This document shows positions 4,830-36,840 of a DNA stretch of 64,000 bases, piece after piece. The notes beneath the pieces were generated by a model. The model saw nothing but the letters and a program-made list of their open reading frames with translations. It had not been told where the DNA came from and did not search any database. The DNA is from an uncultured delta proteobacterium. GTDB lineage: Bacteria > Myxococcota > Myxococcia > Myxococcales > UBA5297. The first letter of the stretch is position 1; the number at the start of each line of letters is the position of its first letter. The DNA is taken from positions 1,314,706-1,378,705 of the forward strand of contig CAVYWD010000001.1 of assembly GCA_963772225.1 (NCBI GenBank), in the 5' to 3' direction. The position numbers were made by a program, and so were the translations under genes.

Positions 4830-4909
4830 CTTCGACCGCGGTTCCGCCGCGCCCGCGCAGGTGCCCGGCGGGTCGCCGGCGCGGGCTCGGCGGTCCTCGC
4901 CCTAAACCC

Positions 4910-21092: not shown

Positions 21093-21196
21093 CGGTCGTT
21101 TCGAAGGCATTAGGTCGATCACTCCACAAAGAGGGCTTGGCAGCCCTGCTGATGGGCAGCAAGACTGACTTGTATTCTTGTTAACTATCCTTGGAG

Positions 21197-21338
21197 CTTG
21201 ACGTCTCGCGTTCGCTCGTGTGACAACTGGGAGACACTCGGGTCAACACAATCCAGTTGCTCGACGTCTCGCGGCCGCTCATGCGACAAGTTGGAGACAT
21301 TCGGGCCGACACGATCCAGTTGCTTGACGATCGCCGAG
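21197..21338. repeat. Tandem direct repeat: two 63-bp units plus a 16-bp partial third copy (about 80% identity) in the divergent intergenic region.
   Basis: Unit 1 is 21197–21259, unit 2 is 21260–21322, and the partial copy is CTTGACGATCGCCGAG. The region is lower in GC than its surroundings. Confidence 0.8.
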
Positions 21339-21399
21339 CCAGCCCGGATATTGGCTTTCGGTCCAGTTCCGAAACAAATTAATTCAACCAGGAGATGTC

Positions 21400-23260: not shown

Positions 23261-25090
23261 CTACTTCGCGGAGTCAATCTCGTACTTGCGGAGCCGATAA
23301 GCGAGCTTCGGCCGGCTGATGCCCAAGGTCCTGGCGGCGAGGGAGAGATTGCCGTTCGATTTGACCACCGCCGCGCGCAGCATGGCGGCCTCGGCTTCGG
23401 CCAGGCGCTGGATGTCTCCCGGCCCGGGAAGCGCTTCGGGGCCCGGCATGACGCGATCGGGCGCGAGGACGATGTTGCCGTTGCGCTGCAGGGCGAACGA
23501 GGACGAGTCGAACTCTTCTCCAGAGGTAAACAGGTGGCAGAGGTCGAGCGCGCCGCCGCCGTCGGACAGGATGACGGCGCGCTCGATCATGTTCTCGAGC
23601 TCGCGGACGTTCCCGGGCCAGTCGTAATTGAACAGCGCGTGGACCGCCCGCTCTCGAAAGCCGGTGATCACCTTGCCGTGCTTGGCGGCGAAGCGCTGCA
23701 AGAGCCAATTCATCATCAGCGGGATGTCGTCGCGGCGCTCCCGCAGCGGCGGCACCTTGATGGGGAAGACGTTGAGGCGAAAGAACAGGTCCTCCCGGAA
23801 GGTCCCGGCCTTCACCGCCTGGCGGAGGTTGACGTTGGTGGCGGACACGACGCGCACGTCGATCTTCCGCGTCCGCGTGTCCCCCACCCGCTCGATCTCC
23901 CCTTGCTGCAGCGCCCTCAAAAGCTTGCTCTGCGCCGTGAGGCTGAGCGTGCCGATCTCGTCGAGGAAGAGCGTGCCGCCGTGGGCGCGCTCGTTCCAGC
24001 CCGGGTATTTCTCCTCCAGCCAGTCGCGGCAATCCGGGGTCATGCCGGCAGCCGGGTTCCACCAGACGGTCGGCCGCCAGAACCACACGCCCAGGTGATA
24101 GGCGTGGTGCTGGTAGTTGAACTCGTTGATCATCTTCTCCCAGTACCAGGGGAGCTCGAGGCCCAGGTCGATGAGCGAGCGCTCGAATTGGCCGACGATC
24201 CACTCCTGCATGAACTCCTTGAACGACTGCTTCCGGTGCTGGAGCGGCGTGTAGTAGTCCATCGCCGGGCCGGTGAGGACGCCGAAGATGCGCCAGGCGC
24301 GGGCGATGGCCATGTCCACCAGCTTCTGCGCCTCCTGCTTGCGCCCGTTGCTGATGAGCACCTCGAGCGCGGGCCCGCCTATCTGCGCGTGGCGCGATTC
24401 GTCGGTCTGGATGCTGGAGATGAGGCTCGAGAACGTGTAATCGCGCGCCTCGGCGGCGTCGGCCGCCAGCCCCAGGAACTGCATGTTGGTGAAGCCCGTC
24501 TCGAAGGCGAAGGTGAGCATCACCGCGATGTCGGTGGCGCTCCGGCCCAGGAAGAGGTCGTCGAAGGTGTGGCGCGCGGCGATCGCGCCCCACTCGTTGG
24601 AGTGGTAGGCCTTGTGGGCCCAGTCGAATTGCCGGTCCTTGGAGCAGTGCTCGTGGGGAAAGAAGAGCTGCAGCTGGGCGTGGCGGTTCTCGTCGAGCAT
24701 GCCGTAGGTCGCCATGTTGCGCATGCCCGGCGCCCGGCCGAAGCGCACCATCCGCGCCTCGGCGCTCATGGCCCCGTATTCGCCCAGGGCGATGGCGCCG
24801 TAGTGGGCCTTGAGAATGGACAGCCAGCCCGGGTCGGCCTCCTGGAGAAGGCGATTGCGCTCCAGCGCCGCCTTCACAGAATAGGCGCCTGCGTCCTTCT
24901 CGCGCTGAATGCGCACGTATTCGGGGAACGAGACCTTGTAGGGCTCGTCGTAGACTTCCCACTTCTCCACCGGCACGCCCTTGGCGCCGGTCATCACGTC
25001 GGGGAAGAGCTCGGACTCTGCCACGTAGGTGGGCGTCCAAGTGGTTCGGCGCGCAATCTCGTACCACTCGCTGCGGTCCAACAAGGCCAT
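23261..25090 (-). CDS. Chimeric ORF: N-terminal ~370 aa of a soluble diiron monooxygenase hydroxylase alpha-subunit (toluene/phenol monooxygenase type) fused in frame to the C-terminal half of a sigma-54-dependent activator (Walker B to Fis-type HTH).
   Basis: Two E..H diiron motifs (DENRH, DESRH) about 97 aa apart, as in TouA/DmpN/MmoX. From [10 protein letters not shown] onward the sequence is ...GAFTRFDLFFRL...ESRRDDIP...[10 protein letters not shown]...LSLAARTLGISRPKLAYRLRKY. The ATG at 25090 has a GAGGAGG ribosome-binding site; the junction is near 23980. Confidence 0.7.
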   Translation of the reverse strand: MALLDRSEWYEIARRTTWTPTYVAESELFPDVMTGAKGVPVEKWEVYDEPYKVSFPEYVRIQREKDAGAYSVKAALERNRLLQEADPGWLSILKAHYGAIALGEYGAMSAEARMVRFGRAPGMRNMATYGMLDENRHAQLQLFFPHEHCSKDRQFDWAHKAYHSNEWGAIAARHTFDDLFLGRSATDIAVMLTFAFETGFTNMQFLGLAADAAEARDYTFSSLISSIQTDESRHAQIGGPALEVLISNGRKQEAQKLVDMAIARAWRIFGVLTGPAMDYYTPLQHRKQSFKEFMQEWIVGQFERSLIDLGLELPWYWEKMINEFNYQHHAYHLGVWFWRPTVWWNPAAGMTPDCRDWLEEKYPGWNERAHGGTLFLDEIGTLSLTAQSKLLRALQQGEIERVGDTRTRKIDVRVVSATNVNLRQAVKAGTFREDLFFRLNVFPIKVPPLRERRDDIPLMMNWLLQRFAAKHGKVITGFRERAVHALFNYDWPGNVRELENMIERAVILSDGGGALDLCHLFTSGEEFDSSSFALQRNGNIVLAPDRVMPGPEALPGPGDIQRLAEAEAAMLRAAVVKSNGNLSLAARTLGISRPKLAYRLRKYEIDSAK

Positions 25091-25158
25091 GGTGGTGCCT
25101 CCTCTTTCGCGGGGCTGGCTCTCGCTTCGAATCGGTGAGGCTGCGGCTCGCCATTTGA

Positions 25159-25173
25159 GCAAGCGCGGTGCCA
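25159..25173 (-). promoter_or_regulatory. Sigma-54 (-24/-12) promoter TGGCAC-N5-TTGC for the monooxygenase-fusion gene.
   Basis: The reverse complement of 25159–25173 is TGGCACCGCGCTTGC, about 70 nt upstream of the ATG at 25090. Confidence 0.6.
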
Positions 25174-25279
25174 CCGGGCCGGACGCCCTCGAACGCGGCG
25201 CTGCGCCACGGCGCAGGCCGTGGGCTCCCGGGGCTCCTTCGATTTGATGCGTCGGGTCACGCAAGGCGTTCACCCTGGA

Positions 25280-25297
25280 TTTCACCATTTGGTGAAA
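25280..25297. promoter_or_regulatory. Perfect inverted repeat TTTCACCA-TT-TGGTGAAA ~110–140 bp upstream of the sigma-54 promoter; candidate activator UAS. Adjacent AT-rich GATTGTC repeats may be an IHF-like site.
   Basis: Palindrome read directly from the sequence; its position fits XylR/DmpR-type UAS geometry. Confidence 0.3.
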
Positions 25298-25477
25298 TAC
25301 CATGGCTTCTGAGATTGTCGATGATTGTCATGATTTCATGAAAATCTCGAGAATAGGCTCCGCTGTCGCGACGCGTTACGCGCCGGCCCGATCCGGCGAG
25401 GTCCTTAGCTTCAGGGCGGGCCCGCGTGACCGCTGATGTGCTTTCACATAGAGTTGTAGATTCGACGCGAGGTCGCT

Positions 25478-25825
25478 ATGAGCAGGACCAAGACGCCCGG
25501 CGCCAAGAAGGCCGTGAGCTTGAGGCGAGACCGGCGCAACGCCTACGGGGAGAACGCCAAGGCGTCGCGCAAGGCCATCCCGCGACGAAAGGCGCTCTCC
25601 CAGCGCTCGGCCCGGCGCGCCGCCGCGGTGGCGATCCACGGCCTCGCGCAGGAGTCCTCGGCCCACGTCGAAGAGCCCTCGGACCGGCGCCTCGCGGACG
25701 CGAGAGCCAAGGTCCGCCGGGGGTTCCGCAAGTCCCCCGACCCGCCGCTCGGAGAGCGGGTGGAGAAGAAGCTCGCCCATCGCCGCCTGCTCGACGCCGA
25801 AGGCGACCGCCAGCGCCGGCGATAG
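25478..25825 (+). CDS. Hypothetical small, highly basic (Arg/Lys-rich) protein encoded within the regulatory intergenic region.
   Basis: 115-aa ORF with GC3-rich codon usage and a GAGGT upstream of the ATG; no recognisable domain. Confidence 0.3.
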
Positions 25826-25920
25826 AGCCAGAGGCTCGCCTTCGACTGCTGGGTGCCCGGCATGGCGCCGACGTTCTCACTTTGATAAGACCCCTTCTCG
25901 AGATGAAAAGGAGGCCCCGC

Positions 25921-27549
25921 ATGCGCGCCGCCGACCTGGACCTGCGAGAGCTGCTCCAATTCGACCCCGAGGGCGGCGTCATTCGCTTCGGCGGTCAGCG
26001 CGCGCTGGTGCTCGACGCGGTGGCGCTCGGCATCCTGCGCCGCGAGCTCATCGAGACGATCGGCCTCTCCGGGGCGCGCGGCATCCTCACTCGGTTCGGC
26101 TACGCGCACGGCTGGCGAACCGCCGAGAGCCTTCGCGCCGCCTTCCCCTGGGACGACCCGGACGAATGGCGCCAGGCCGGCGGTCGCCTCCACACGCTGC
26201 AGGGCCTGGCCGTCGTGGAGGCGACCGCGGCCGACGGCAGCGATGCCCAGCACCTCGCCGACGCCCTCTGGCACGACTCCTACGAGGCCGACCAACACCT
26301 GCTTCACTTGGGCCAGGCGGAGGAGCCGGTGTGCTGGACGCTCACCGGCTTCGCCAGCGGCTACCTCTCGCTCTGCCATGGCCGGGAGATCCTCTGCGTT
26401 GAAAGGCGCTGCCGCGGCCAGGGCGACGCCGCCTGCCACCTCGTCGGCCGCGCCCGCGAGGACTGGGGCGAGGCCGCCGCCCAGCACCTCCCGTTCTACC
26501 GGAAGGAGTGCATGGACAAGGCGCTCCTCCACGTGACCGACGAGCTCAAGCGCGTCGAGCAGCAGCTGCGCGCGCGCAGGCGGGCGCTCGGGCCCGCCGC
26601 GCGGGCGGTCGACCGCTCCGGGCTCATCGCGCAGAGCGAGCCCATGCTGCGCGCCCTCGAGCTGGCGCGCAGGGTGGCGCAGGTCGACTCCACCCTGCTC
26701 GTCACCGGCGAGAGCGGCGTCGGCAAAGAGCGGATCGCCCGGCTCATCCACGACGAGTCCAAAAGGAGGTCGGGGCCCTTCGTGGCCATCAACTGCGGGG
26801 CGGTGCCCGAGAGCCTGCTCGAGTCCGAGCTCTTCGGCCACGCCAAGGGCGCCTTCACCGGCGCCGCGCAGGACCGGCCCGGCCTCTTCGAGGCGGCGAA
26901 CGGCGGGACGCTGTTCCTCGACGAGATCGGCGAGGTTCCGCCGGCGATGCAGGTGAAGCTCTTGCGGGCGCTCCAGCAGCGCGAGGTGCGCCGCGTCGGC
27001 GAAAACCAGAGCCGAAAGGTCAACGCGCGCGTCATCGCCGCGACCAACCGCGACCTTTCCGCCGAGATCCGCGCGGCGCGCTTTCGCCAGGACCTCTACT
27101 ACCGCCTGCGCGTGGTGGAGCTGCGCGTGCCCCCGCTGCGCGAGCGCCGCGACGACATCTTGCCCCTCGCGCGCGCCTTCCTCGTCGACGCCAGCGCCCG
27201 CACCGGCCGAAAGATCTCCGCGCTGACTCCGCGGGCGGCGAACCGGCTGGTGCGCTACGCCTGGCCGGGCAACGTGCGAGAGCTCGAGAACGCGGTCGAG
27301 CGCGCCGTCGTCTTGGCTCAGGGCCACCGCCTCGATCTCGACGACTTCCCCGAGGAGGTCGGGCTCGCGCTCCCCGGCGCGGGTGCGCAGGGCGACGCGC
27401 GGTCGCTGGAGGCGGTCGAGCGCGACCACATCCTCGCGGTGCTCCGCGCCAACGGCGGCAACAAGGCGAAGGCGGCGCAGCAGCTGCAAATCGGCATCGC
27501 CACCCTCTACCGCAAGCTGAAGCAGTACGAGGCCCCGCCCCGGCGCTGA
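25921..27549 (+). CDS. Sigma-54-dependent transcriptional activator of the XylR/DmpR (NtrC) family, with an XylR_N/V4R-type aromatic-sensing N-terminal domain.
   Basis: N-terminal [20 protein letters not shown] (XylR_N-like). AAA+ motifs [33 protein letters not shown]. Fis-type HTH at the C-terminus. AGGAGG ribosome-binding site 6 nt before the ATG. Confidence 0.85.
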
Positions 27550-29154: not shown

Positions 29155-29376
29155 GGCGTCCTTCTCCTGGCAGACAATTGTGCACAGGTCATGCCCGGCG
29201 CTCCTACCGCCAGATTTCAGCCGGTTGACCAAGAGCGGCGCGCGCCGTTCCTCTCATCATGATATTCCACCTCTCATTATGAGAATTGGCTCCACACCGG
29301 CGGGCGCCGAGGCGATGGTGTCTTGAAGCAGCCGCCGCGGCGCCGCGCCTCCGGACCGAGCCGCGCCAGGTCCGAT

Positions 29377-29562
29377 GGCGGGCCAGCCGCCGTCGCAGGG
29401 CAAGATGACGCCGTTGAAATTGGAGGCTTCCTCCGAGGCGAGGAATGTGATGCCGGCCGCCAGCTCCTCGGGCATCGCCACGATCGGGATGATTTGCATG
29501 GACTTGCCCAGGCGCTCCGGCATGAGCTTCGAGCCCTCTTCGGCCAATCGAAGCGCGCTCGC
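29377..29562 (-). pseudogene. C-terminal fragment (~60 aa) of a short-chain dehydrogenase/reductase; the N-terminal 190+ aa are missing.
   Basis: ...MQIIPIVAMPEELAAGITFLASEEASNFNGVILPCDGGW is an SDR C-terminal signature, with no upstream Rossmann/TGxxxGxG part. Confidence 0.35.
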
Positions 29563-29974
29563 GCCCGATGCCGGCGCCGGCGGCGACGGGGGCCATGTCA
29601 GCAAAGCGCTTTGCATTTGGCATGTTGCTCTCCTTTTCTTCGCACTTCGACCGTTGGAAGCCACCCCGGCCATCCAACTCCTCGAATATAGCGAGGAGCA
29701 GGGCGCCGAGTTCGTCCAATCCGCTCGAGTGAAGCCCGGCGTCTTGATTTCTTCGAAGGAAGTGTTTAGTCTGCGCCGCGAATTGAACGAGGCGGTGCAC
29801 CCGATGAAGCTCGCGCAAACATTCCAGGGACAGCTCGAAGCGGCCATGAATGCCCGTGCGGCAGCACCCTATCTGCGCCCCGTCTTCGGTCGCCTCCTGG
29901 CACAGCAAGGGAGGTCGAACCCACTCTTCGATTCAGGCCCGCCCGACCCCTGACAGATCTCTTCTTTACGTAGA

Positions 29975-30008
29975 AGGATCCCAGGGCCGGGCGAGCGAAG
30001 AGCTCCCC
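29975..30008 (+). terminator. Intrinsic terminator: 8-bp GC stem GGGCCGGG/CCCGGCCC, then TTTT, about 20 nt after the stop of an atypical-codon plus-strand ORF ending at 29953.
   Basis: Hairpin plus T-tract read from the sequence. Confidence 0.5.
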
Positions 30009-30194
30009 GGCCCTTTTCGTGGGGAAGGCCCCCGCGCCGCCGAAGGCGACCGGAAAAGCTTCAGCAGTTACAGCGTCGCAGAGCAACGACGAAGCCGATT
30101 CAGCCCTGGCTTGAAGCCTGGAGGCTGAAGAAGCGCTCCTTTCTCGTCGAAGGCGCAGGAGGTGGCAGCCTTCAGACAGCGGTTTTCACCGAAT

Positions 30195-30275
30195 GGGGAT
30201 GTTGACCGTAAGGGACGGATGCGGGCTGTAAACCCGCCGCCATGCGCCAACCCGGTTCGAGTCCGGGCATCCCCG
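30195..30275 (+). tRNA. tRNA-Tyr(GUA)-like with a long variable arm.
   Basis: Manual fold: acceptor GGGGATG/CATCCCC (7 bp), anticodon stem GCGGG/CCCGC with loop CTGTAAA, variable arm CGCCATGCGCCAA, T-arm CCCGG-TTCGAGT-CCGGG; compare E. coli tRNA-Tyr. Confidence 0.55.
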
Positions 30276-30524
30276 AGCATGAAGTGGCAGCTCCGAAGGA
30301 TGGTCGTGGCGGGTCGGTCGAGTCAGCGTCGAATGGGCGAGCAGCAGCCCGAGTAGATCCAGCGGTCGGTCTTTGACATTTCGATAGCAGTGGCGACGAC
30401 ACTTCTTCATCGCAAGAGGAGAGGTGCGTCCAGACGGGCCTTTTGTTTCCTGTTTCGTGGTGGAATCGCGGATGATTCATCCGCGATCCAGGGTTCGATT
30501 CCCTGGGGGCTCGGTCATTTTCAT

Positions 30525-30595
30525 GCGGGTACAGCTCGAGGGTCGAGCGCAGGCCTTCCAAGCCTTGAGACGAGGGTTCGATTCCTCTACCCGCT
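30525..30595 (+). tRNA. tRNA-Gly(UCC)-like element, probably a pseudo-tRNA (imperfect T-stem and anticodon stem).
   Basis: Acceptor GCGGGTA/TACCCGC perfect; D-arm GCTC-GAGGGTC-GAGC; anticodon loop CTTCCAA; the T-loop TTCGATT has a mismatched stem. Confidence 0.35.
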
Positions 30596-30611
30596 TTCCG
30601 GGTTTCATCCT

Positions 30612-30682
30612 TGGGGACTCGTCTAACGGCAGGATGGCTGGCTCTGAACCAGCTCGTCGGGGTTCGAATCCCTGGTCCCCAG
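30612..30682 (+). tRNA. tRNA-Gln(CUG).
   Basis: Acceptor TGGGGAC/GTCCCCA, anticodon stem GCTGG/CCAGC with loop CTCTGAA, T-arm CGGGG-TTCGAAT-CCCTG, discriminator G. The overall layout parallels E. coli tRNA-Gln. Confidence 0.6.
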
Positions 30683-30718
30683 CACGCGCCTGAGCGTTCG
30701 CGCTCACAGGCGCAAACG

Positions 30719-30791
30719 GCCTTGGTGGTCTATTGGCGTGGACGGCGGCCTTTCAAGCCGCTTGGCGAGGATTCGATTCCCTTCCATGGCA
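30719..30791 (+). tRNA. tRNA-Glu(UUC)-like element with single mismatches in the acceptor and T stems.
   Basis: D-arm GTCT-ATTGGCGT-GGAC; anticodon stem GCGGC/GCCGC with loop CTTTCAA; acceptor GCCTTGG/CCATGGC (6/7). Confidence 0.4.
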
Positions 30792-30816
30792 ACGATGGCC
30801 ATCCATTGCATCTTCC

Positions 30817-30886
30817 GCTTCACGCGCTGGACGCGCGCGCGGGCCTCCTAAGCCCGCGGCGCCGGGTTCGACTCCCGGGCGAAGCA
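30817..30886 (+). tRNA. tRNA-Arg(CCU)-like element with a shortened, GC-rich D-region; probably a pseudo-tRNA.
   Basis: Anticodon stem CGGGC/GCCCG with loop CTCCTAA, perfect T-arm CCGGG-TTCGACT-CCCGG, acceptor 6/7. Confidence 0.35.
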
Positions 30887-31048
30887 TGCCGAAAAGCTTG
30901 GTGCTTGCCGAGTGGCGCTCGGCGCTGTTCCGCGGCGCCCGTGTGAACGGGCTTTGGCCGCGGGCCATCGCGCTCGCGCGTTCTGCGTTTCTTAGGCGAG
31001 CACCCGGACGGACCGCCGAACGGTCCACCCAAAGGAGCCTTTGGCTCC

Positions 31049-31123
31049 ACTGACCTAGCTCAGACTGGTAGAGCACGAGATGCGTCAATCTCGAAGTCTC
31101 GGGTTCGAATCCCGAGGTCAATC
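31049..31123 (+). tRNA. tRNA-like element with canonical D- and T-arms but an aberrant anticodon arm (8-nt loop TGCGTCAA on a 5-bp stem, or 6-nt loop on a 6-bp stem); identity undetermined.
   Basis: D-arm TAGCTCAGACTGGTAGAGCA, T-arm TCGGG-TTCGAAT-CCCGA, acceptor 6/7. Confidence 0.4.
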
Positions 31124-31442
31124 GCGGCGCTCCCGCCAAAGAGCCGTCGCTCGAAGCACCAAGCTGCCCTCGGAAAGGGCGAGCGCCCGCGCGTTGCAGC
31201 GCTGCCGCCAGCGGCCGGAGTCGAACGCGAGCGGTTCCGTCGCGAGCGCCCGGTCGTCCGCGGCGGCCCACCGACGCGATACCGCTCGCCGGCCCTGGGC
31301 CGCAGGCTAAAGGTGCTCGGCGACCGCGGGCGGCGGGAGCGCTTCTTTATCTTTTACTCATTTCTCTTCCGGCGCAGCGCTCGGAGGAGACCGGGCGTCC
31401 CCTTGGTCGTCCGACCATCAACGACCGCGAAAGGAGTTCGTT

Positions 31443-32558
31443 ATGAAGCTCGATATTGCATCGCACGAACGCGTGTTCCTGGTCCGGGACGGGCGCGCGG
31501 TTCGCTACCTCGCCCCGGGGCGCCACCGGTTCTATGCCCTGCTCGACCGACTCGAGGCCCAGCGCATCGACACCCGCGAGCTCCTCGCCGACCTCGACGG
31601 CGACCGGGTCGCGCTCGTCCCCTCGGACGAGCTGATGCTCGTCGAGGTCGCCGCCCACCAGCGGGCCGTGGTCTATCGCAAGAGTCGACCGGTGAAGTGG
31701 CTCGGCCCGGGCCAGCATCAGGTCTGGACGGTCGAGCGGGTCTTCAAGGACGCCGCGCGGTCGGTCTCTGCACCGGCCGTCAGGGTCGAGGTCCTCGACA
31801 CCGACGCCGTTCGAGTGTCGCCGCTCCGAGACGAGCTGCGCGCGCTGGCCCCGGCCAGCGACTACGTCGAGGCGACGGCGCCCGAGGGTTCGGTCGTCCT
31901 CCGCTACGTCGACGGCGTTCTGGATGAGGTCCTTCCCGCGGGCCGCCACGCGGCCTGGACGACCGTCCACAAGGTCCAGCTCGCGGTCATCGACCTGCGA
32001 GAGCGGGTGCTCCCGGTGACCGGCCAGGAGGTCATGTCCAAGGACCGCGTGTCGCTGCGGCTCAATTTGTCGGCGGCGTTTTGCGTGAAGGACGCCCGCC
32101 GGCTGGCGACCGTGGCCCGCGCGCCGGACGACATGCTCTACCTGGCGATGCAGCTCGCCGCCCGCGAGGCGGTCAGCGCGCGGACGCTCGACGAGCTGCT
32201 CCAGGACCGCGACGACGTGGCCTCCGAGATGCACCGGGCGGTCGCGTCGCGGGCGGAGGTCGTGGGGCTCGAGCTCATCCGCTTTGGCGTGAAGGACATC
32301 GTGCTGCCGGGCGAGATGAAGGCGCTGCTCAATCGGGTCATCGAGGCGCAAAAGGAGGCCGAGGCGAACGTCATCCTCCGCCGTGAGGAGACGGCCGCCA
32401 CCCGCTCGCTCGCGCAGACCGCGAAGGTCCTGGGCGAGAACCCGCTGCTCGTCCGCCTCAAGGAGCTCGAGGCGTACAAGGAGCTCGCCGCGAAGGTGGG
32501 CCAGGTCCACGTCGTCCTCGGCGAGGGCGGCCTGTCCAAGCTCGAGCTCAAGATGTGA
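31443..32558 (+). CDS. SPFH/band-7 (stomatin/flotillin-like) domain protein.
   Basis: 371 aa with the band-7 core (VSKDRVSLRLNLSAAFCV...) and a C-terminal coiled-coil (EAQKEAEANVILRREETAATRS); GAAAGGAG ribosome-binding site. Confidence 0.7.
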   Translation: MKLDIASHERVFLVRDGRAVRYLAPGRHRFYALLDRLEAQRIDTRELLADLDGDRVALVPSDELMLVEVAAHQRAVVYRKSRPVKWLGPGQHQVWTVERVFKDAARSVSAPAVRVEVLDTDAVRVSPLRDELRALAPASDYVEATAPEGSVVLRYVDGVLDEVLPAGRHAAWTTVHKVQLAVIDLRERVLPVTGQEVMSKDRVSLRLNLSAAFCVKDARRLATVARAPDDMLYLAMQLAAREAVSARTLDELLQDRDDVASEMHRAVASRAEVVGLELIRFGVKDIVLPGEMKALLNRVIEAQKEAEANVILRREETAATRSLAQTAKVLGENPLLVRLKELEAYKELAAKVGQVHVVLGEGGLSKLELKM

Positions 32559-32608: not shown

Positions 32609-33475
32609 CTAGACCGCGCGGGCAATCGTCAGGCGAAACACCGGCGGGATCGCCCCGGCGATGGATCCGTCCGAAAGGCGCAGGTATCGCTGCTCCATGG
32701 CGGCGGTATCGAGCTCTTCTTCCAAGGCGAAGCCGCGCGCCTTCAGAAACGGCTCCATCTCCCCCGGCTTCGTGCGAAACCGGATCGGCTCGCCAGGGTG
32801 GTTCGCCCTCATCGACGCGCGCAGGCCCTGGGCGGCAGCCGCCCCGCCCGCCCCCATCACGTGGTCGAAGGCCACCGCGCTTCCGGGAGCGGAGCATCGG
32901 CGAATCGCGCGCAGCGTCGCGTCGACCGCGGCTTCGTCGAGGTAGTAGATGACGCCCTCCCAGACGAAGAGCGTCCGCTCGCCTGCGACAAAACCCGCGC
33001 GCGAGAGCACTTCCGCCAAAGGCTGCTTCGCCAAGTCGGCCGGCACGTACGTGAGCGATGGCGGCGGCTCTATCGCCTCGCGCTTCAAGATCGCCACCTT
33101 GCGCGCCTGCGTCGGCGCGGCGTCGACCTCGAAGAGCCTGGTCGCGCGGACCCGCTCGCGAAACCGGTACGGCCGGCTGTCGTACCCGGCGCCCAGAAAG
33201 ACGAGCTGAGGAGTCGCCTCGTCCAGGGCAGCTCCAACCACCTGGTCGAAGAACGCCGTCCGCGCCACGAGGTACGGGTAGGTCCCTCCCGCAACCGACT
33301 CGATGATCCAGCGCCATTTCGCCTCGTCTCCGAGCGCTGCTTTTCTGTGATCGGCCAGGAACAGGCGGGCCATCGTGTCCGCGCCTCGCACTTCTAGGCG
33401 CGCGTCCTGAACGGCCAGCGCGCGCATGAAGGCGACCGATTCCGCCGTCCCAGAGGGAACCTGCTGAACTCCCAT
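32609..33475 (-). CDS. Class I SAM-dependent methyltransferase (LCM/TcmP-like O-methyltransferase family).
   Basis: SAM-binding block LVFLGAGYDSRPYR and the acidic FVWEGVIYYLDEAAV motif; GAGGAG ribosome-binding site. The long ORF-track extension to 34597 was rejected. Confidence 0.7.
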   Translation of the reverse strand: MGVQQVPSGTAESVAFMRALAVQDARLEVRGADTMARLFLADHRKAALGDEAKWRWIIESVAGGTYPYLVARTAFFDQVVGAALDEATPQLVFLGAGYDSRPYRFRERVRATRLFEVDAAPTQARKVAILKREAIEPPPSLTYVPADLAKQPLAEVLSRAGFVAGERTLFVWEGVIYYLDEAAVDATLRAIRRCSAPGSAVAFDHVMGAGGAAAAQGLRASMRANHPGEPIRFRTKPGEMEPFLKARGFALEEELDTAAMEQRYLRLSDGSIAGAIPPVFRLTIARAV

Positions 33476-34043: not shown

Positions 34044-34280
34044 GCGATGTCACGCGCCGGCTTCGGCGGCCAAGTTGGCGCGGCAGCAGGGGAAACCTCG
34101 GGGTTTTGCGCAGAGCGGAGCAGTGTCACGCGCATGCTTCGGCGTTCGGCGGCGCCGGCGAGTCGCCGTTTTCCCTCTGAGGAGCCGTCAGGCAGCGGGT
34201 GACCGCAGGTACGTGTCACGCGCCGGCTTCGAGCTCTCTCAGAGGGAAAAACGGCCCCTGTCACGCGCCGGGATGGCCAA
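34044..34280 (+). repeat. Multiple terminal repeats of the IS21-family left end: four copies of TGTCACGCGCC at about 34048, 34122, 34215 and 34261.
   Basis: Read directly from the sequence. Confidence 0.7.
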
Positions 34281-34301: not shown

Positions 34302-35216
34302 GTGGCGCGCATGACGGGCGTGTCGACCGCGAGCACCGAGATGGCGCCGAGCGAGCTGGGCGATTCGCTCTTGGCGGTGCGACTGTGCGCGGGCGAGGCC
34401 ACGCAGCAGATGCAGCTGTCGCTCTCGAAGCTCGGGCAGCTGACGCCGGTGCAGGCCTTTCGAATGGGCGAGAAGCTGGAGGTCTTCGATGGACTCAAGC
34501 GGTTGAGCGCCTCGCGCGAGCTTGGGTGGTCGAAGCTGCGCGTCGAGGTCCACGGCGTCGACTCTGCAGGGGCGAAGGTGCGGCTGTTGCGCTGCAACGC
34601 CGGGGCGGGTCTGTGCGAGCTCGAGGAGGGCTGGCTGGTGCGCTCCCTCTATCGCGACGACCACGTGAGCCAGCCGCAGATCGCGATTCTGCTCGGGCGG
34701 GACAAGAGCTGGGTGTGTCGGCGTCTGGCTTTGGCAGAGGACCTGTCGGACGAGCTGACGGCGAATGTGCGGCTGGGGCTGTTGTCGGCCACCGCGGTGC
34801 GAGAGCTTTCGCGGTTGCCGCGCGGCAACCAGGACGCTGTGGGCCTGGTGGTAGCCCGACGAGGGCTGACCACGCGGCAGACCGCGCGCCTGGTCGATTC
34901 GCTGCTCGCGGCCCAGGAAGCGGAGTGGCCGGCGCTGCTGGAGCGAGCCAGCGCACCCATGGCCGCCGAGTCCCCCAAGGGCAGTGCACCGCGGCGCACG
35001 CCCGGCGAGCAGATGGTCGCGGACGCCTGGGCGATGAAGCGCCTCTCGACGCGCCTGCACGCGCGGCTCTTGGAGCGGTCGCTGGCCAGCTTGGGAGCGC
35101 CGGCGTGCGAGGTGGTCTCGCGCGAGCTCGTCGAGCTGCGCGGTGCGCTGGCCGCCCTGACCCGGACCCTCGACGCGCGCCTCGGGGCGCCAGGAGCCTC
35201 CGATGCTTCCGCTTGA
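34302..35216 (+). CDS. ParB/Srx-fold N-terminal domain protein with an HTH, translationally coupled (14-nt overlap) to istA; passenger or accessory gene of the IS.
   Basis: EVFDGLKRLSASRELGW resembles the ParB-box GxxRxxA region. GTG start with a GGTGAGGG ribosome-binding site. Confidence 0.6.
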   Translation: MARMTGVSTASTEMAPSELGDSLLAVRLCAGEATQQMQLSLSKLGQLTPVQAFRMGEKLEVFDGLKRLSASRELGWSKLRVEVHGVDSAGAKVRLLRCNAGAGLCELEEGWLVRSLYRDDHVSQPQIAILLGRDKSWVCRRLALAEDLSDELTANVRLGLLSATAVRELSRLPRGNQDAVGLVVARRGLTTRQTARLVDSLLAAQEAEWPALLERASAPMAAESPKGSAPRRTPGEQMVADAWAMKRLSTRLHARLLERSLASLGAPACEVVSRELVELRGALAALTRTLDARLGAPGASDASA

Positions 35217-36840
35217 CCCGCAGCTGGTCCACGACGTGGTGCAGCTCGACAAGGAGGGGATGACTTGGCGCGCGATCGCGCGGGCCCTGCACATCAGCCG
35301 AAACACCGTGCGGCGCATCGTCAAGAGCCACCAGGAGGCGCGCGAAACTGCGCACTCGGCGCTGCCACGGGTGCGCGGCTCGCGCCGCCGCGCCTCGAAG
35401 CTCGACCCCTTTCGCAGCCTGATCACCGAGCTGCTCGAGAAGTATCCGGACATCACCGCGCAGCGGGTCTTCGAGCATTTGCGCGACGAGCATGGCTACG
35501 CAGGCGGCGACACCATCGTGAAAGTCCTGGTGAGCAACCTGCGCCCGAAGTTGCCGCCCAAGCCGAGCCTCCAGACGCCGCCGCGGGTGCCGGGGGACAT
35601 GGGCGAGTGCGACTGGTCGCCCTACCCGGTGGAATTCGCCCATGCGCCGTCCATGACCCTGCAGGCCTTCGGATACGCACTGCGCTACTCGACCCGGAAG
35701 TACTTCGGCTTCTTCGAGAGCAACGGCCTGCACCCTTTGATGGACGGCCACCGCCACGCCTTCGCGCGCTTCCAGGGCGCCGCGCGCCGGTGCACCTACG
35801 ATAGCCAGAAGCCGGTGGTGCTGCGCTGGGAAGGCAACCAGCCGATCCTCAATCCCCGCTTCGTCGATTTCGCCACCTATTACGAATTCTCCGCCGTCGC
35901 CGTGCGCCATGCCCCCAACCGCAAGCCCCGGGTCGAGCGGAGCTTCTGGGAGCTCTCCCTCAGCTTCTTCCGGGGCCGCTCATTCCGCGACCTGGCCGAC
36001 CTCGAGGCCCAGCTCTCCCGGTGGATGGACACCATCGCCGACCTGCGCCCCATCAAGCGGATGAAGCGGCGCACGCGGATGGAGCTCTTCGCCGAAGAGC
36101 AGTCGCTGCTGCGGCCGCTGCCGCGCCACCCCTACGACACCGCGCGGGTGCTCTACAAGCTCTGCAACCTCGAGGGCTTCATGACCTGGGAGACCAATGA
36201 ATATTCCCTGCCCTATGAATACGTCACCGAGATTCTCCCGGTGCGCATCACCGAGAATGAGCTCTTCGTCTACAAAGCGGACCTGACCTGCCTGGCACGG
36301 CACGAGCTCAGGCCTCGCGGCGCGCAGCAGCAGTCAATCCTGCCGGGGCATCGGCCCCCGCGCGCCGAGGGCGGGCCCGACCTCGAGCACCTGCGGCGCG
36401 CATTCCAGGATCTTGGGGGGCCCGGAGCGGAGTACCTGGCGGCGCTCGAGCGGCGCGACTCGCGGTCGGCCGGCTACCACGCGCGCAAGGTCCTTTCGCT
36501 GCGCGAGGGCTACGACACCGCCGAGCTCTGCAAGGCGCTCTCGCACGCGCTCTGCTTCGGCGCTCTCGAGCACGTCAGCATCGAGAAGATCCTCAACGCC
36601 CGCTCCGACCGCCGCCGGCTCGACGAGTACGTCGCCGCGGCCTCGGCCAAGAAGCTCAAGAGCGCCGTCGCCCAGAGCTGCACCGAGCCGCGCGACCTCG
36701 CCGAGTACGACGCGCTGCCGTGCCGCGGCACAGTCCCCGAGCCCCAAGGAGAAGCGACATGCGAGCCCCCACCTCCCTCAAAGGCCCCGCCGCCGAAGCC
36801 CGGGAGCGCATCGAGCGGCACCTCGACCGACTCGGTCTGA
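35203..36840 (+). CDS. istA: IS21-family transposase IstA.
   Basis: N-terminal HTH (MTWRAIARALHISRNTVRRIV), DDE-type catalytic core, and 545-aa length. Confidence 0.85.
   Translation: MLPLDPQLVHDVVQLDKEGMTWRAIARALHISRNTVRRIVKSHQEARETAHSALPRVRGSRRRASKLDPFRSLITELLEKYPDITAQRVFEHLRDEHGYAGGDTIVKVLVSNLRPKLPPKPSLQTPPRVPGDMGECDWSPYPVEFAHAPSMTLQAFGYALRYSTRKYFGFFESNGLHPLMDGHRHAFARFQGAARRCTYDSQKPVVLRWEGNQPILNPRFVDFATYYEFSAVAVRHAPNRKPRVERSFWELSLSFFRGRSFRDLADLEAQLSRWMDTIADLRPIKRMKRRTRMELFAEEQSLLRPLPRHPYDTARVLYKLCNLEGFMTWETNEYSLPYEYVTEILPVRITENELFVYKADLTCLARHELRPRGAQQQSILPGHRPPRAEGGPDLEHLRRAFQDLGGPGAEYLAALERRDSRSAGYHARKVLSLREGYDTAELCKALSHALCFGALEHVSIEKILNARSDRRRLDEYVAAASAKKLKSAVAQSCTEPRDLAEYDALPCRGTVPEPQGEATCEPPPPSKAPPPKPGSASSGTSTDSV

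What the first reader, a model, noticed from the sequence alone, without database searches (positions are those of the whole stretch)
29560..31130. Array of at least six tRNA-like elements, several non-canonical, next to an atypical-codon ORF with its own terminator and an SDR gene stump
Within about 950 bp: tRNA-Tyr-like, a perfect orphan T-arm plus 7-bp hairpin (30462–30513), tRNA-Gly(UCC)-like, tRNA-Gln(CUG), tRNA-Glu(UUC)-like, tRNA-Arg(CCU)-like, and a tRNA-like element whose anticodon arm folds with an 8-nt (or 6-nt) loop. Several have single mismatches in the acceptor or T stems. Upstream are an SDR C-terminal remnant, a plus-strand ORF with AT-rich codons ending at 29953, and a strong intrinsic terminator. 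This resembles horizontally transferred tRNA array units or a much-used integration hotspot; a tRNA with an expanded anticodon loop would itself be unusual.
Basis: seen in the sequence. Interest (0 to 1): 0.6.

Follow-up and report, generated by a model that had tools for sequence, protein, structure and literature searches.

The report
Eroded tRNA array plus tRNA-like leader
The cluster is the shrunken remnant of a long accessory tRNA array seen in related myxobacteria, and its oddest member, the "tRNA" with an 8-base anticodon loop, looks like a tRNA-shaped part of a conserved, undescribed structured RNA in front of a membrane-scaffold (slipin) gene, not a decoding tRNA.

Summary
ARAGORN finds six co-oriented tRNA-like genes in 930 bp and none elsewhere in 64 kb; four pass Rfam's tRNA threshold.

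The downstream slipin (Band_7) gene gave the context. Its 82-88% identical homologs in Myxococcales contigs sit inside arrays of up to 31 tRNA genes, with HNH genes and 8/4-type tRNA-Ser. This matches the horizontally spread "L-arrays". The window keeps Tyr, a fragment, Gly, Gln, Glu and an Arg-like element in the same order. The intervening genes are missing, and Gly, Glu, Arg-like and the fragment carry defects not seen in the orthologs compared.

The 8-nt-loop element is something else. A tRNA-shaped gene lies 247-328 nt upstream of slipin in all 12 genomes examined, including Myxococcus xanthus, where there is no array. Compensatory changes support its cloverleaf. The central loop bases differ in almost every genome, position 33 is not fixed, and the top of the acceptor stem is mismatched in 11 of 12. 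A conserved ~220-nt hairpin ending in a T-run follows it, just before the slipin ribosome-binding site.

I read this as a non-decoding tRNA-like domain of an undescribed leader or non-coding RNA, not a frameshift suppressor. No evidence for an integration hotspot was found.

The parts
29257..29560 (-). C-terminal stump of an SDR (short-chain dehydrogenase) gene. It marks the left breakpoint of the rearranged region.
   Evidence: Pfam adh_short_C2 matches profile positions 199-235 of 236 (E 0.0019, below the curated cut-off). No Rossmann-motif N-terminus was found anywhere in the window.
29375..29953 (+). ORF with atypical codons (192 aa as called in a public assembly). It is probably not a real gene.
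   Evidence: There is no Pfam or PHROG hit. The only match among 5.8 billion proteins is itself. Its 5' part is antisense to the SDR stump.
29983..30018 (+). Strong intrinsic terminator (12-bp bulged G+C stem followed by TTTT) just upstream of the array.
   Evidence: -33.3 kcal/mol, z -4.2, and 0 of 200 shuffles fold as well.
30194..30276 (+). Tyr(GUA)-like class II tRNA with non-canonical junctions: 5 nt between the acceptor and D stems, one extra base between the T stem and the acceptor 3' strand (an 8/5 fold is possible), and U1.G72.
   Evidence: ARAGORN. Rfam gives only tRNA-Sec at 29.3 bits. The ortholog in L234 (8182-8269) has the same extra junction bases and a compensatory change in the D stem.
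30277..30335 (+). Conserved block of unknown nature that follows the Tyr gene.
   Evidence: It aligns with L234 8270-8365, which follows that locus's Tyr gene.
30465..30514 (+). Orphan 3' part of a tRNA (9-bp hairpin plus T arm plus 3' strand). The 5' half has been lost.
   Evidence: Bases 30489-30512 are 96% identical to the 3' end of the tRNA preceding Lys(UUU) in L233.
30525..30595 (+). tRNA-Gly(UCC), with Gly-type G1-C72, C2-G71, G3-C70 and U73. Its T arm is one base short, a defect seen only in the window. C27.U43 is shared with the ortholog.
   Evidence: Rfam gives 44.1 bits against 57.4 for the L233 ortholog. Alignments A3 and A8 show that every compared Gly(UCC) has the full T arm.
30612..30682 (+). 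tRNA-Gln(CUG), canonical (U1-A72, G2-C71, G3-C70, G73). It is the best-preserved member.
   Evidence: Rfam gives 51.1 bits. It is 97% identical to L233 387-457.
30719..30791 (+). tRNA-Glu(UUC) with two mismatches seen only in the window, U4.U69 and A53.C61.
   Evidence: Rfam gives 51.8 bits against 58.7 for L233 865-937. In alignment A9 all six related Glu genes keep G53 and have a paired 4-69.
30817..30886 (+). Arg(CCU)-like compact tRNA: no 8-9 linker, a 4-5 bp D stem with loop (C/U)GGAC, and a 7-bp anticodon stem. It carries an A6.C67 mismatch seen only in the window.
   Evidence: ARAGORN calls it in a shifted register and Rfam has no hit. It is 90% identical to L233 2053-2122 and related to L239 Arg(CCT), both with intact acceptor stems and with compensatory changes in the anticodon stem.
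30898..31048 (+). Conserved upstream domain of the slipin leader RNA. It ends in a hairpin (31034-31048, GGAGCC-TTT-GGCTCC) that abuts the tRNA-like element.
   Evidence: Alignment A13 has 76% column identity in seven genomes. The motifs CTGTCCCCGGGC and GGTCCACC also occur in distant relatives. The hairpin keeps its pairing despite sequence changes.
31049..31123 (+). tRNA-like element (ARAGORN '???', loop TGCGTCAA). Its cloverleaf is conserved, its anticodon loop is unconstrained, and its C2.A71 mismatch is conserved.
   Evidence: Rfam gives 46.6 bits. Orthologs lie upstream of slipin in 12 of 12 genomes. Covariation is, loop diversity, and orthology rather than paralogy.
31124..31357 (+). 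About 220 nt of long irregular hairpin ('rod'). It is closed by helix 31126-31137 with 31332-31343 and followed by the T-run 31344-31357. It acts as a terminator or attenuator in front of slipin.
   Evidence: The MFE fold has z -4.96. In alignment A14, 74 pairs are 91.7% paired and 24 show compensatory change. The same architecture with different closing-helix sequences is found in M. xanthus and other distant relatives. The pattern scan also flags a terminator-like site at 31328-31344.
31443..32558 (+). Slipin / SPFH (Band_7) gene, with ribosome-binding site GAAAGGAG about 8 nt upstream. It is the conserved partner of the tRNA-like leader.
   Evidence: Pfam Band_7, E 4e-31. Homologs are named slipin family protein in Myxococcus, Corallococcus and Archangium. 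There is no PADLOC hit.

Best explanation
Two things lie side by side.

(1) 30194-30886 is the eroded remnant of a long accessory tRNA array (L-array type). This array flanks the slipin gene in a sub-lineage of Myxococcales. In this genome, deletions have removed most members, leaving Tyr-like, a 3' tRNA fragment, Gly, Gln, Glu and an Arg-like element in the ancestral order. Gln and the Arg-like element are still well conserved. Gly, Glu and the fragment carry defects that probably inactivate them. Inferred, not shown: the survivors are co-transcribed from the + strand and cut out by RNase P and RNase Z, and any function they keep is as spare tRNAs, as described for L-arrays.

(2) 30898-31357 is not part of the array. 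It is a conserved structured RNA found across Myxococcota immediately 5' of slipin. It consists of an upstream domain, a tRNA-shaped domain (the '8-nt-loop tRNA') and a ~220-nt rod hairpin with a U-tail. Selection preserves the L-shape (D, T and acceptor arms) but not the anticodon loop. The most likely role of the tRNA-like domain is therefore a protein-recognition or processing handle (for RNase P, RNase Z or the CCA-adding enzyme), not decoding. The rod plus U-run would terminate most transcripts, so that slipin is expressed by read-through. The conservation and the structures are shown. Processing, termination and regulation are inferred.
For: Array homology:
- Slipin homologs at 82-88% identity sit in contigs with 31, 22 and 17 tRNA genes (L233, L239, L234).
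- Window elements match L233 in the same order: fragment 96%, Gly 86%, Gln 97%, Glu 82%, Arg-like 90%, then a 1.7 kb block at 81%.
- HNH genes are embedded in L233, L237 and L239, as reported for L-arrays (PMC8421152).
- The genes flanking the arrays differ between contigs.
- Defects seen only in the window: alignments A8, A9 and A11. Rfam scores are lower than for the orthologs.

tRNA-like leader:
- A tRNA-shaped gene lies 247-328 nt upstream of slipin, on the same strand, in 12 of 12 genomes. These include M. xanthus, an Archangium MAG and contigs without arrays.
- The cloverleaf is 93.3% paired, and 14 of 21 pairs show compensatory changes; slid controls give 28-47%.
- The loops are CTCATAA, CTCAGAA, CCGATAA (twice), CCTGTAA, CTTGTAA, CTTGGAA, CAAGGAA, CTTGTAG, TCGTCAA and TGCGTCAA, plus a contracted loop in M. 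xanthus. Position 33 is U, C, A or G.
- In the seven closest genomes, nucleotide diversity is 0.54 in the loop core and 0.069 elsewhere (Fisher p = 2.7e-4).
- The elements are 89-99% identical to each other and at most 65% identical to any of 89 array tRNAs.
- The rod hairpin folds with z of about -3.7 to -6.7 in 9 of the 10 genomes where the T-run was located correctly. In the close group, 24 of 74 pairs show compensatory changes.
- The closing-helix sequence is entirely different in distant lineages but remains complementary (sequences).
- The T-run lies only 26-64 nt from the slipin ATG in six genomes, which leaves no room for a separate promoter.
- Rfam has no family here.
Against: - No expression, processing or aminoacylation data exist.
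- The 'defects' are judged against one to six orthologs only, and irregular features are common even in working array and phage tRNAs. Some window tRNAs may therefore still function.
- Positions 32, 37 and 38 of the tRNA-like loop remain tRNA-like (C32, A37, A38 in 9 of 12), which a fully unconstrained loop would not predict.
- The rod structure was derived from the same alignment on which its pairs were counted.
- Twelve genomes, found through one protein family, are a small sample.
- The rest of the source genome could not be inspected, so I cannot say whether the array tRNAs are supernumerary.
- A promoter overlapping the terminator cannot be excluded.
Confidence: 0.7

Rival explanations
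1. The cluster is a working compact accessory tRNA operon. On this reading the irregularities are family traits of array tRNAs rather than decay, and all or most members are processed, charged and used, for instance under translational stress.
For: Several oddities are shared with orthologs and so are not random damage: Gly C27.U43, the Tyr junction bases, the compact Arg-like fold with compensatory changes, and C2.A71 in the tRNA-like element. Gln is 97% and Arg-like 90% identical to L233, at or above the 87% of the slipin coding sequence. In Anabaena, 23 of 26 L-array tRNAs were charged in vivo (PMC8421152).
Against: The window has lost about 25 of the genes present in L233. Gly lacks a T-arm base that every compared Gly has. 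Glu has lost the near-universal G53-C61 pair and has a U.U mismatch in the acceptor stem. One element lacks its 5' half. Rfam scores are 7-13 bits below those of the orthologs.
Confidence: 0.2
2. The 8-nt-loop element is a natural +1 frameshift-suppressor or quadruplet-decoding tRNA with anticodon CGUC that reads GACG.
For: ARAGORN reports a 4-base anticodon. The cloverleaf passes Rfam at 46.6 bits. Known suppressors such as SufJ and SufB2 carry one extra base in the anticodon loop (PMC4238358; bioRxiv 10.1101/2020.12.31.424971).
Against: Position 33 is G, not U. C2.A71 is mismatched. The 11 orthologs carry nine other 7-nt loop sequences and one contracted loop, with no conserved anticodon, and this includes genomes where the element is the only tRNA-like gene nearby. 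RNAfold prefers a 6-bp stem with a 6-nt loop. The element is physically part of a larger conserved structured RNA.
Confidence: 0.03
3. The locus is an integration hotspot. On this reading the tRNA fragments and the stumped SDR gene are scars of repeated site-specific integration of mobile elements into tRNA genes.
For: There is an orphan 3' tRNA part (30465-30514). The SDR gene is truncated and the adjacent DNA is foreign-looking, with lower G+C (0.63 against about 0.69). An IS21-family transposase and a ParB-like gene lie 3-4 kb downstream. The context around the arrays varies among relatives.
Against: No integrase was found among the flanking ORFs scanned. No direct repeat of a tRNA 3' end flanks any segment. 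The orphan piece aligns with an in-array tRNA of L233 and sits in the conserved gene order. No viral or plasmid relatives of the array were found.
Confidence: 0.07

Closest known systems
L-arrays: long, horizontally disseminated tRNA gene arrays (Santamaria-Gomez et al. 2021, PMC8421152); 'tRNA array units' (Tran et al. 2016, PMC4758250)
   Same: The relatives' arrays have 17-31 densely packed co-oriented tRNA genes covering most amino acids, embedded or linked HNH endonuclease genes, frequent insertions and deletions between relatives, and variable genomic context. The window's genes are their orthologs.
   Different: The window keeps only 6 genes, below the threshold of at least 20, and has no HNH gene. 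In my literature search I found no report of such arrays in Myxococcota. A slipin gene with a structured leader is embedded in the array, a partner not mentioned in the parts of the paper that I read.
Allo-tRNAs and polycistrons of irregular tRNAs (Mukai et al. 2017, PMC5389517)
   Same: The tRNAs are irregular and clustered, with Sec-like features. The relatives' tRNA-Ser(UGA) is a textbook 8/4 form: an 8-bp acceptor stem, a 4-bp T stem, a 6-bp D stem with a tetraloop, and G73. It passes the Rfam tRNA-Sec threshold.
   Different: The window's only class II member (Tyr-like) has a 13-bp branch (8/5), or a 7/5 branch with extra junction bases, not the 12-bp 8/4 or 9/3 branch. Its D stem is 4 bp with a 5-nt loop. 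No toxin-antitoxin genes lie next to it in the window.
+1 frameshift-suppressor tRNAs with 8-nt anticodon loops (SufJ, SufB2; PMC4238358)
   Same: The anticodon loop has 8 nt in an otherwise tRNA-shaped molecule.
   Different: The suppressors are canonical tRNAs with a single inserted base, U33 and an intact acceptor stem. Here U33 is absent, the acceptor stem is mismatched, and the orthologs show that the loop varies freely.
tRNA-like structures used as processing or recognition modules in longer RNAs (mascRNA at the MALAT1 3' end, Rfam RF01684; plant-virus TLS; RtT RNA released from the E. coli tyrT transcript). These comparisons come from my own knowledge.
   Same: A cloverleaf or L-shape is conserved inside a longer transcript, while the anticodon region is free to vary or shrink. 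The element sits at the junction between functional RNA segments.
   Different: This is a bacterial element placed 5' of a protein-coding gene. It is followed by a ~220-nt rod and a terminator, and it keeps a full D arm and a 5-bp anticodon stem. No processing has been shown. The mascRNA model scores are at chance level (E 0.2-10).
Mitochondrial tRNAs that need 5'-editing by Thg1-like proteins (PMC6471195)
   Same: Mismatches are encoded in the genome and confined to the first three acceptor base pairs (11 of 12 genomes). M. xanthus encodes a Thg1-like protein that has been characterised in vitro; I know of no physiological substrate for it.
   Different: Edited mitochondrial tRNAs have conserved, functional anticodons. 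No editing is known in bacteria, and none was tested here.

Membership tests
tRNA array unit (Tran et al. 2016) | At least 20 tRNA genes in one region | tested here: not met
   The window has 6 ARAGORN genes plus 1 fragment. The relatives L233 (31) and L239 (22) meet the criterion.
tRNA array unit (Tran et al. 2016) | Density of at least 2 tRNA genes per kb | tested here: met
   Six genes lie in 930 bp (30194-31123), which is 6.5 per kb.
L-array (Santamaria-Gomez et al. 2021) | Common ancestry with a long array found sporadically among relatives, with frequent insertions and deletions | tested here: met
   Element-by-element homology and shared order with L233, L234 and L239. More distant slipin loci (L241, L244-L247) have no array.
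L-array (Santamaria-Gomez et al. 2021) | Linked HNH homing-endonuclease gene | tested here: not met
   No HNH domain was found in the window ORFs tested around the array. HNH genes are present inside the arrays of L233, L237 and L239.
L-array (Santamaria-Gomez et al. 2021) | The array tRNAs are supernumerary to a dispersed housekeeping set | not testable with these tools
   Only 64 kb of the source genome is available, and the genome-contig scan did not return the source genome.
Allo-tRNA (Mukai et al. 2017) | 12-bp acceptor branch in an 8/4 or 9/3 configuration | tested here: not met
   The window's Tyr-like element has an 8-bp acceptor stem (UGGGGAUG/CAUCCCCG) and a 5-bp T stem, giving 13 bp, or else 7/5 with extra junction bases. 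The tRNA-Sec model gives 29.3 bits, below the 47-bit threshold.
Allo-tRNA (Mukai et al. 2017) | Long variable arm, and a long D stem with a tetraloop | tested here: inconclusive
   A variable region of 13 nt with a 3-bp stem is present. The D stem is only 4 bp with a 5-nt loop.
Frameshift-suppressor tRNA | A canonical, chargeable tRNA body (U33, intact acceptor stem, identity elements) with one extra loop base | tested here: not met
   Position 33 is G, C2.A71 is mismatched, and the discriminator is C73 together with A1-U72. This fits none of the E. coli identity sets for Thr, Asp or Arg, a judgement from my own knowledge.
Frameshift-suppressor tRNA | Derived from a tRNA with a defined anticodon that is conserved in orthologs | tested here: not met
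   The 12 orthologs carry 11 different loop sequences, which ARAGORN reads as 7 different amino acids.
Canonical elongator tRNA (Rfam RF00005) | Cloverleaf scoring above the gathering threshold | tested here: met
   Four of the six window genes score 44-52 bits against a threshold of 29. The Tyr-like and Arg-like elements fail.
Canonical elongator tRNA (applied to the slipin-proximal element) | Invariant U33, fully paired acceptor stem, anticodon conserved among orthologs | tested here: not met
   Position 33 is U in 5 of the 12 genomes. The first three acceptor pairs are mismatched in 11 of 12. The anticodon is not conserved.
tRNA-like processing module (mascRNA-type) | Cleaved from a longer transcript by RNase P and RNase Z | not testable with these tools
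   This needs RNA-seq, RACE or in vitro cleavage. What is shown is only the conserved L-shape nucleotides (G18 G19, T54 T55 C56, A58 invariant) and the fixed position in the leader.
Known Rfam cis-regulatory or ncRNA family (for the leader 30898-31357) | A match to any of the 4227 covariance models | tested here: not met
   Only the tRNA model matches. All other hits have E above 0.02 and lie far below their thresholds. The same holds for the M. xanthus locus.

The most novel reading that the evidence does not exclude
The slipin-proximal element, together with its upstream domain and rod hairpin, is a previously undescribed, Myxococcota-wide structured RNA. Its tRNA-shaped domain would work outside decoding. 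One possibility is a cis-acting RNase P/Z processing and terminator read-through switch that sets slipin (SPFH membrane-scaffold) expression. A more daring possibility is that it is the missing natural substrate of the bacterial Thg1-like 3'-5' polymerase, whose template-dependent 5'-end repair would correct the conserved mismatches in the first three acceptor base pairs. The near-saturated variation of the four central loop bases could then reflect diversifying pressure, for example escape from or titration of anticodon nucleases, rather than mere neglect.
Probability: 0.3. Interest if true: 0.85.

Novelty: new variant of a known kind. Interest (0 to 1): 0.62.

Why it matters
(1) Annotation. 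Gene finders label the slipin-proximal element as tRNA-Leu, Met, Ile, Thr, Pro, Asp or 'undetermined' depending on the genome. This silently distorts the tRNA complements reported for myxobacteria, including the model organism M. xanthus.

(2) A testable candidate RNA. A conserved RNA of about 450 nt, with an embedded tRNA fold and a rod-shaped terminator in front of an SPFH/slipin gene, is a concrete new candidate regulatory or non-coding RNA in a genetically tractable organism.

(3) Range of L-arrays. The result adds Myxococcota to the lineages carrying long accessory tRNA arrays and 8/4-type tRNA-Ser. It also captures one such array in the act of eroding, which bears on whether these arrays are maintained by selection or are transient cargo.

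(4) Caution about expanded loops. An expanded anticodon loop in a genome scan should not be read as natural quadruplet decoding without a comparison of orthologs.

Tried and rejected
- Plasmid and phage BLAST of the array gave only generic 80% matches of single Gly or Gln tRNAs.
- The genome-contig scan with the neighbouring pirin protein returned homologs at 63% identity or less, with no SDR neighbour and no arrays.
- The metagenome scan for a Gly(UCC)-to-Gln anticodon/T-loop pattern returned mostly housekeeping thrU-tyrU-glyT operons and phage arrays, none close to the window.
- Viral scans for the 8-nt-loop arm, the tRNA-like body, the Gln gene and the slipin protein found nothing related. 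One phage tRNA-Arg(UCU) shares the anticodon stem but is not otherwise similar.
- The Tyr anticodon arm is shared by many phage tRNA-Tyr genes, but the bodies differ.
- A search for a homolog of ORF 29375-29953 found none.
- I tested whether the variable loop covaries with a complementary 'specifier' elsewhere in the leader, as a T-box-like kissing interaction. No positionally consistent complement exists, so the idea was rejected.
- A sigma-54 or sigma-70 promoter reading of the conserved upstream motif was not convincing (and inspection).
- 6S, SRP, tmRNA, GOLLD and ROOL identities for the rod were excluded by Rfam.
- A defence-system role for slipin has no PADLOC support.

Full report
OBSERVATION. 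ARAGORN finds six tRNA-like genes, all on the + strand, between 30194 and 31123, and none in the other 63 kb. Rfam's tRNA model passes four of them at its gathering threshold: Glu 51.8, Gln 51.1, the 8-nt-loop element 46.6 and Gly 44.1 bits. The Tyr-like gene reaches only 29.3 bits, on the tRNA-Sec model. The Arg(CCU)-like gene has no Rfam hit.
- An orphan hairpin (9 bp, not 7) is fused to a perfect T arm, with no 5' half (30465-30514).
- Glu has U4.U69 and A53.C61 mismatches.
- Gly has a T arm one base short, plus C27.U43.
- The last element has a C2.A71 mismatch and a loop that can be read as 8 or 6 nt.

Upstream, the minus-strand ORF ends with the last ~55 residues of an SDR (a weak Pfam adh_short_C2 match to positions 199-235 of 236). 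No N-terminal part is present anywhere in the window. The + strand ORF 29375-29953 has no homolog at all. A strong terminator sits at 29983-30018 (z -4.2).

WHERE IT COMES FROM. The window is about 69% G+C and encodes sigma-54 activators. The gene just downstream of the cluster, a slipin/SPFH (Band_7) protein at 31443-32558, has its closest homologs in Myxococcales MAGs and soil metagenomes. Named homologs at 64-67% identity occur in Myxococcus, Corallococcus and Archangium. The source is therefore most likely a member of Myxococcota. Searches with the array DNA against plasmids, phages, viral contigs and metagenomes gave nothing specific, and so did a genome scan seeded with the neighbouring pirin gene.

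THE ARRAY IS A REMNANT OF A LONG ARRAY. Fetching the contigs that encode the 82-88% identical slipins changed the picture.
- L233 carries 31 tRNA genes in 5.3 kb, with the slipin gene and an HNH endonuclease gene inside the array.
- L239 carries 22 tRNA genes, plus HNH.
- L234, an NCBI Myxococcales MAG, carries 17 in this order: Trp, Thr, Gly, Tyr, Lys, Lys, Gly, Gly(UCC), Gln, Gln(CUG), Asn, Glu, Glu(UUC), 'Ile', slipin, Pro, Pro, Pro.

BLAST of the window against these loci matches the window's elements to L233 in the same order:
- the fragment's T arm (96% over 24 nt);
- Gly(UCC);
- Gln(CUG) (97%);
- Glu (83%);
- the Arg-like element (90%, matching a stretch that ARAGORN does not call in L233);
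- a continuous 1.7 kb block at 81% that covers the last 'tRNA', the intergenic region and slipin.

The Tyr-like gene aligns with the L234 Tyr gene, and the ~60 nt after it are also shared. Relative to L233, the window lacks about 25 intervening genes and the HNH gene.

These arrays fit the published description of L-arrays. Those are long, sporadically distributed, rich in insertions and deletions, and linked to HNH genes (PMC8421152). They also fit the 'tRNA array unit' definition of at least 20 genes at 2 or more per kb (PMC4758250). The window's six genes do not reach that threshold. In the relatives, tRNA-Ser passes Rfam's tRNA-Sec threshold. L233 3385-3470 is a textbook 8/4 form: an 8-bp acceptor stem, a 4-bp T stem, and a 6-bp D stem with a tetraloop. 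This is the (8/4) tRNA-Ser/allo-tRNA type of Mukai et al. (PMC5389517).

FAMILY TRAITS VERSUS DAMAGE. Some irregularities are shared with orthologs and are therefore traits of this array family:
- Gly C27.U43;
- the extra bases at both acceptor junctions of Tyr, with a compensatory D-stem change;
- the compact Arg-like fold, which has no 8-9 linker and a 7-bp anticodon stem with compensatory changes between L233 and L239.

Others are seen only in the window:
- a one-base loss in the Gly T arm, which the L233 ortholog, two plasmid genes and a phage gene do not share;
- Glu A53.C61 and U4.U69, against G53 and a paired 4-69 in six relatives;
- Arg-like A6.C67;
- the missing 5' half of the fragment.

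Rfam scores are 7-13 bits lower than for the L233 orthologs of Gly, Glu and the last element, and equal for Gln. Identity to L233 is 97% for Gln and 90% for Arg-like. It is 86% for Gly and 82% for Glu, against 87% for the slipin coding sequence and 73-80% for the structured non-coding flanks. My reading is that the array is eroding. Gln and perhaps the Arg-like element are still under constraint. Gly, Glu and the fragment are probably dead. I cannot tell for Tyr.

THE '8-NT-LOOP tRNA' IS A DIFFERENT KIND OF OBJECT. A tRNA-shaped gene lies on the same strand, 247-328 nt upstream of the slipin start, in all 12 genomes examined. These include slipins of only 64-70% identity whose contigs have no array at all: L241, L245, L247, an Archangium MAG (L246) and M. 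xanthus (L244). ARAGORN names it Met, Leu, Ile, Thr, Thr, Pro, Pro, Leu, Ile, Asp, Thr and '???'.

The alignment (A12) shows why.
- In the seven closest genomes, the D arm, the anticodon stem (CGAGA/TCTCG), the T arm and acceptor positions 3-7 are virtually invariant.
- The central bases of the loop differ in every one of those seven genomes.
- Position 33 is U, C, A or G.
- The M. xanthus loop is contracted: the element is 70 nt, with stem CAGGU/AUCCUG and loop CCAA.

In the close group, nucleotide diversity is 0.54 in the loop core and 0.069 elsewhere (Fisher p = 2.7e-4). The cloverleaf itself is strongly supported: 93.3% of cells are paired, and 14 of 21 pairs show compensatory changes, against 28-47% pairing when partners are slid. 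The exception is the first three acceptor pairs, where 11 of 12 genomes carry a mismatch. This is C2.A71 in most of the close group, and A3.C70 or A3.A70 in L241, L246 and L247.

These elements are 89-99% identical to one another and at most 65% identical to any of 89 array tRNAs. They are therefore orthologs, not swapped-in paralogs. A tRNA whose anticodon, U33 and acceptor top are all free to vary is not a decoding tRNA. The window's 8-nt loop is one more state of an unconstrained loop. It equals the Archangium loop TCGTCAA plus one G.

A LARGER CONSERVED RNA. The ~150 nt upstream and the ~220-320 nt downstream of the tRNA-like element are also conserved in the close group (A13 at 76% and A14 at 62% column identity). 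Their indels are not multiples of three, so the region is non-coding. RNAalifold predicts that the downstream part is one long irregular hairpin. Its closing helix begins 1-3 nt after the tRNA-like element and ends at a T-run. On that structure, 74 pairs are 91.7% paired and 24 show compensatory changes, against 32-51% and 5-9 for slid controls. The caveat is that the structure was derived from the same alignment.

Independent single-sequence MFE folds support the same picture in distant relatives. They give the same rod, closed by an 11-18 bp helix next to a T-run. In 9 of the 10 genomes where the T-run was located correctly, z is -3.7 to -6.7 against mononucleotide shuffles; L238 gives z -1.3. 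The closing-helix sequences are unrelated but complementary:
- GGCGCUCCCGCC/GGCGGGAGCGCU in the window;
- GAAGGCUCCGU/ACGGGGCCUUC in L241;
- GGAGCCUGGCG/CGCCAGGCUCC in L245;
- GAGGGUUCCGCC/GGUGGGGCCCUC in M. xanthus.

The T-run is only 26-64 nt from the slipin ATG in six genomes, and the ribosome-binding site GAAAGGAGG follows directly. A small hairpin abuts the 5' end of the tRNA-like element and keeps its pairing despite sequence change. The motifs CTGTCCCCGGGC and GGTCCACC recur in the upstream domain of distant relatives. Rfam has no family here beyond the tRNA hit.

MECHANISM (INFERRED). The conserved unit is a structured leader or non-coding RNA made of an upstream domain, a tRNA-like domain and a rod with a U-tail, followed by slipin. 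Selection keeps the tertiary-fold nucleotides (G18 G19, T54 T55 C56, A58) and the acceptor-T stack but ignores the anticodon. The tRNA-like domain is therefore most plausibly a handle for tRNA-processing enzymes (RNase P, RNase Z, the CCA-adding enzyme), which would cut the transcript at defined points. The rod plus U-run should terminate most transcripts. Where no room is left for a promoter, slipin would depend on read-through.

In one sub-lineage an L-array accreted on both sides of this unit. In the window's genome that array has since been whittled down. The conservation, the structures and the synteny are shown. Co-transcription, cleavage, termination and any regulatory logic are not.

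ALTERNATIVES. A frameshift-suppressor reading is contradicted by G33, by the acceptor mismatch and by the ortholog series. An integration-hotspot reading lacks an integrase, att repeats or viral and plasmid relatives. A fully functional mini-operon remains possible for some members. A kissing interaction between the variable loop and a covarying partner in the leader was tested and not found.

One speculative lead is worth recording. The mismatches are confined to the first three acceptor pairs. That is the signature of mitochondrial tRNAs repaired by Thg1-like 3'-5' polymerases, and M. xanthus has such an enzyme, which has been characterised in vitro (PMC6471195); I know of no physiological substrate for it.

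VERDICT. As an array, the finding is an ordinary though decayed member of a known kind. The element that drew attention turns out to be a conserved, apparently undescribed tRNA-like leader RNA of slipin genes. That is the part worth following up.

Noticed in passing
window 23261-25303 (-) and 25426-27549 (+): The minus-strand ORF is a chimera. A phenol/methane hydroxylase domain (residues 89-318) is fused to the C-terminal half of a sigma-54 activator (AAA+ profile positions 85-167, lid, HTH_8). It lies head-to-head with a full XylR/DmpR-type activator. This looks like a rearrangement scar in an aromatic-degradation cluster.
   Followed up: no
window 34048-34276: Four direct copies of an 18-nt motif, TGTCACGCGCCGGCTTCG, spaced 45-90 nt apart, lie just upstream of a ParB-like gene (34302-35216) and an IS21-family transposase (35203-36840). 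No istB gene follows the transposase. This is probably a transposon end or a ParB/transposase binding array.
   Followed up: partly
L233 3385-3470; also L232 364-448 and 2210-2294, L233 5228-5312: The tRNA-Ser genes in the related arrays have the 8/4 allo-tRNA architecture and score above the gathering threshold of Rfam's tRNA-Sec model (48.7-57.3 bits). Automated annotation could mislabel them as selenocysteine tRNAs.
   Followed up: partly
L234 8182-8269 (Tyr); L234 9636-9711; L237 543-614; L245 5678-5753; L246 2641-2716: Several tRNA-shaped genes in these myxobacterial loci have C33 instead of the near-universal U33 (loops CCGUAAA, CCGAUAA, CCUGUAA, UCGUCAA).
   Followed up: partly
window 30277-30335 and L234 8270-8365: A ~60-nt block after the Tyr gene (GTGGCAGC...GGTNGTGGCGGG...GGTCGAGTNAGCGTCGAA) is conserved between the window and L234. 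L234 carries an extra GGGGCC-TTCG-GGCCCC hairpin inside it. Its nature is unknown and no tRNA finder calls it.
   Followed up: no
L097 3026-3100, L106 3932-4008, L203, L204, L209, L215 (viral and metagenome contigs): ARAGORN reports further '???' tRNAs with 4-base or 2-base anticodons (tttc, caat, cggg, gtaa, ggtg, gt) inside phage-type tRNA arrays. Odd-sized anticodon loops therefore recur in arrays generally.
   Followed up: no
L237 2480-8641; L245 9548-10170: Next to the slipin-plus-array unit of L237 lie an HNH gene, an AbiEii toxin-like gene and a VgrG-like (Phage_GPD/Gp5) gene. Near the L245 slipin there is a ParE/PhdYeFM toxin-antitoxin pair. This echoes the reported link between irregular tRNAs and toxin-antitoxin systems.
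   Followed up: no
window 2001-5000 and 21001-22000: G+C drops to 0.60-0.64 in a ~0.69 background, with strong positive AT skew at 2-4 kb. The 21.3-23.1 kb gene encodes an endonuclease/exonuclease/phosphatase protein with jacalin and ricin-B lectin domains.
   Followed up: no
window 32609-33475 (-): The LCM-type SAM methyltransferase downstream of slipin is called as 288 aa in a public assembly (L004). The 662-aa ORF listed mechanically is therefore an over-extension. Homology with the related slipin loci stops at about 32595, so this gene marks the right breakpoint of the conserved block.
   Followed up: partly
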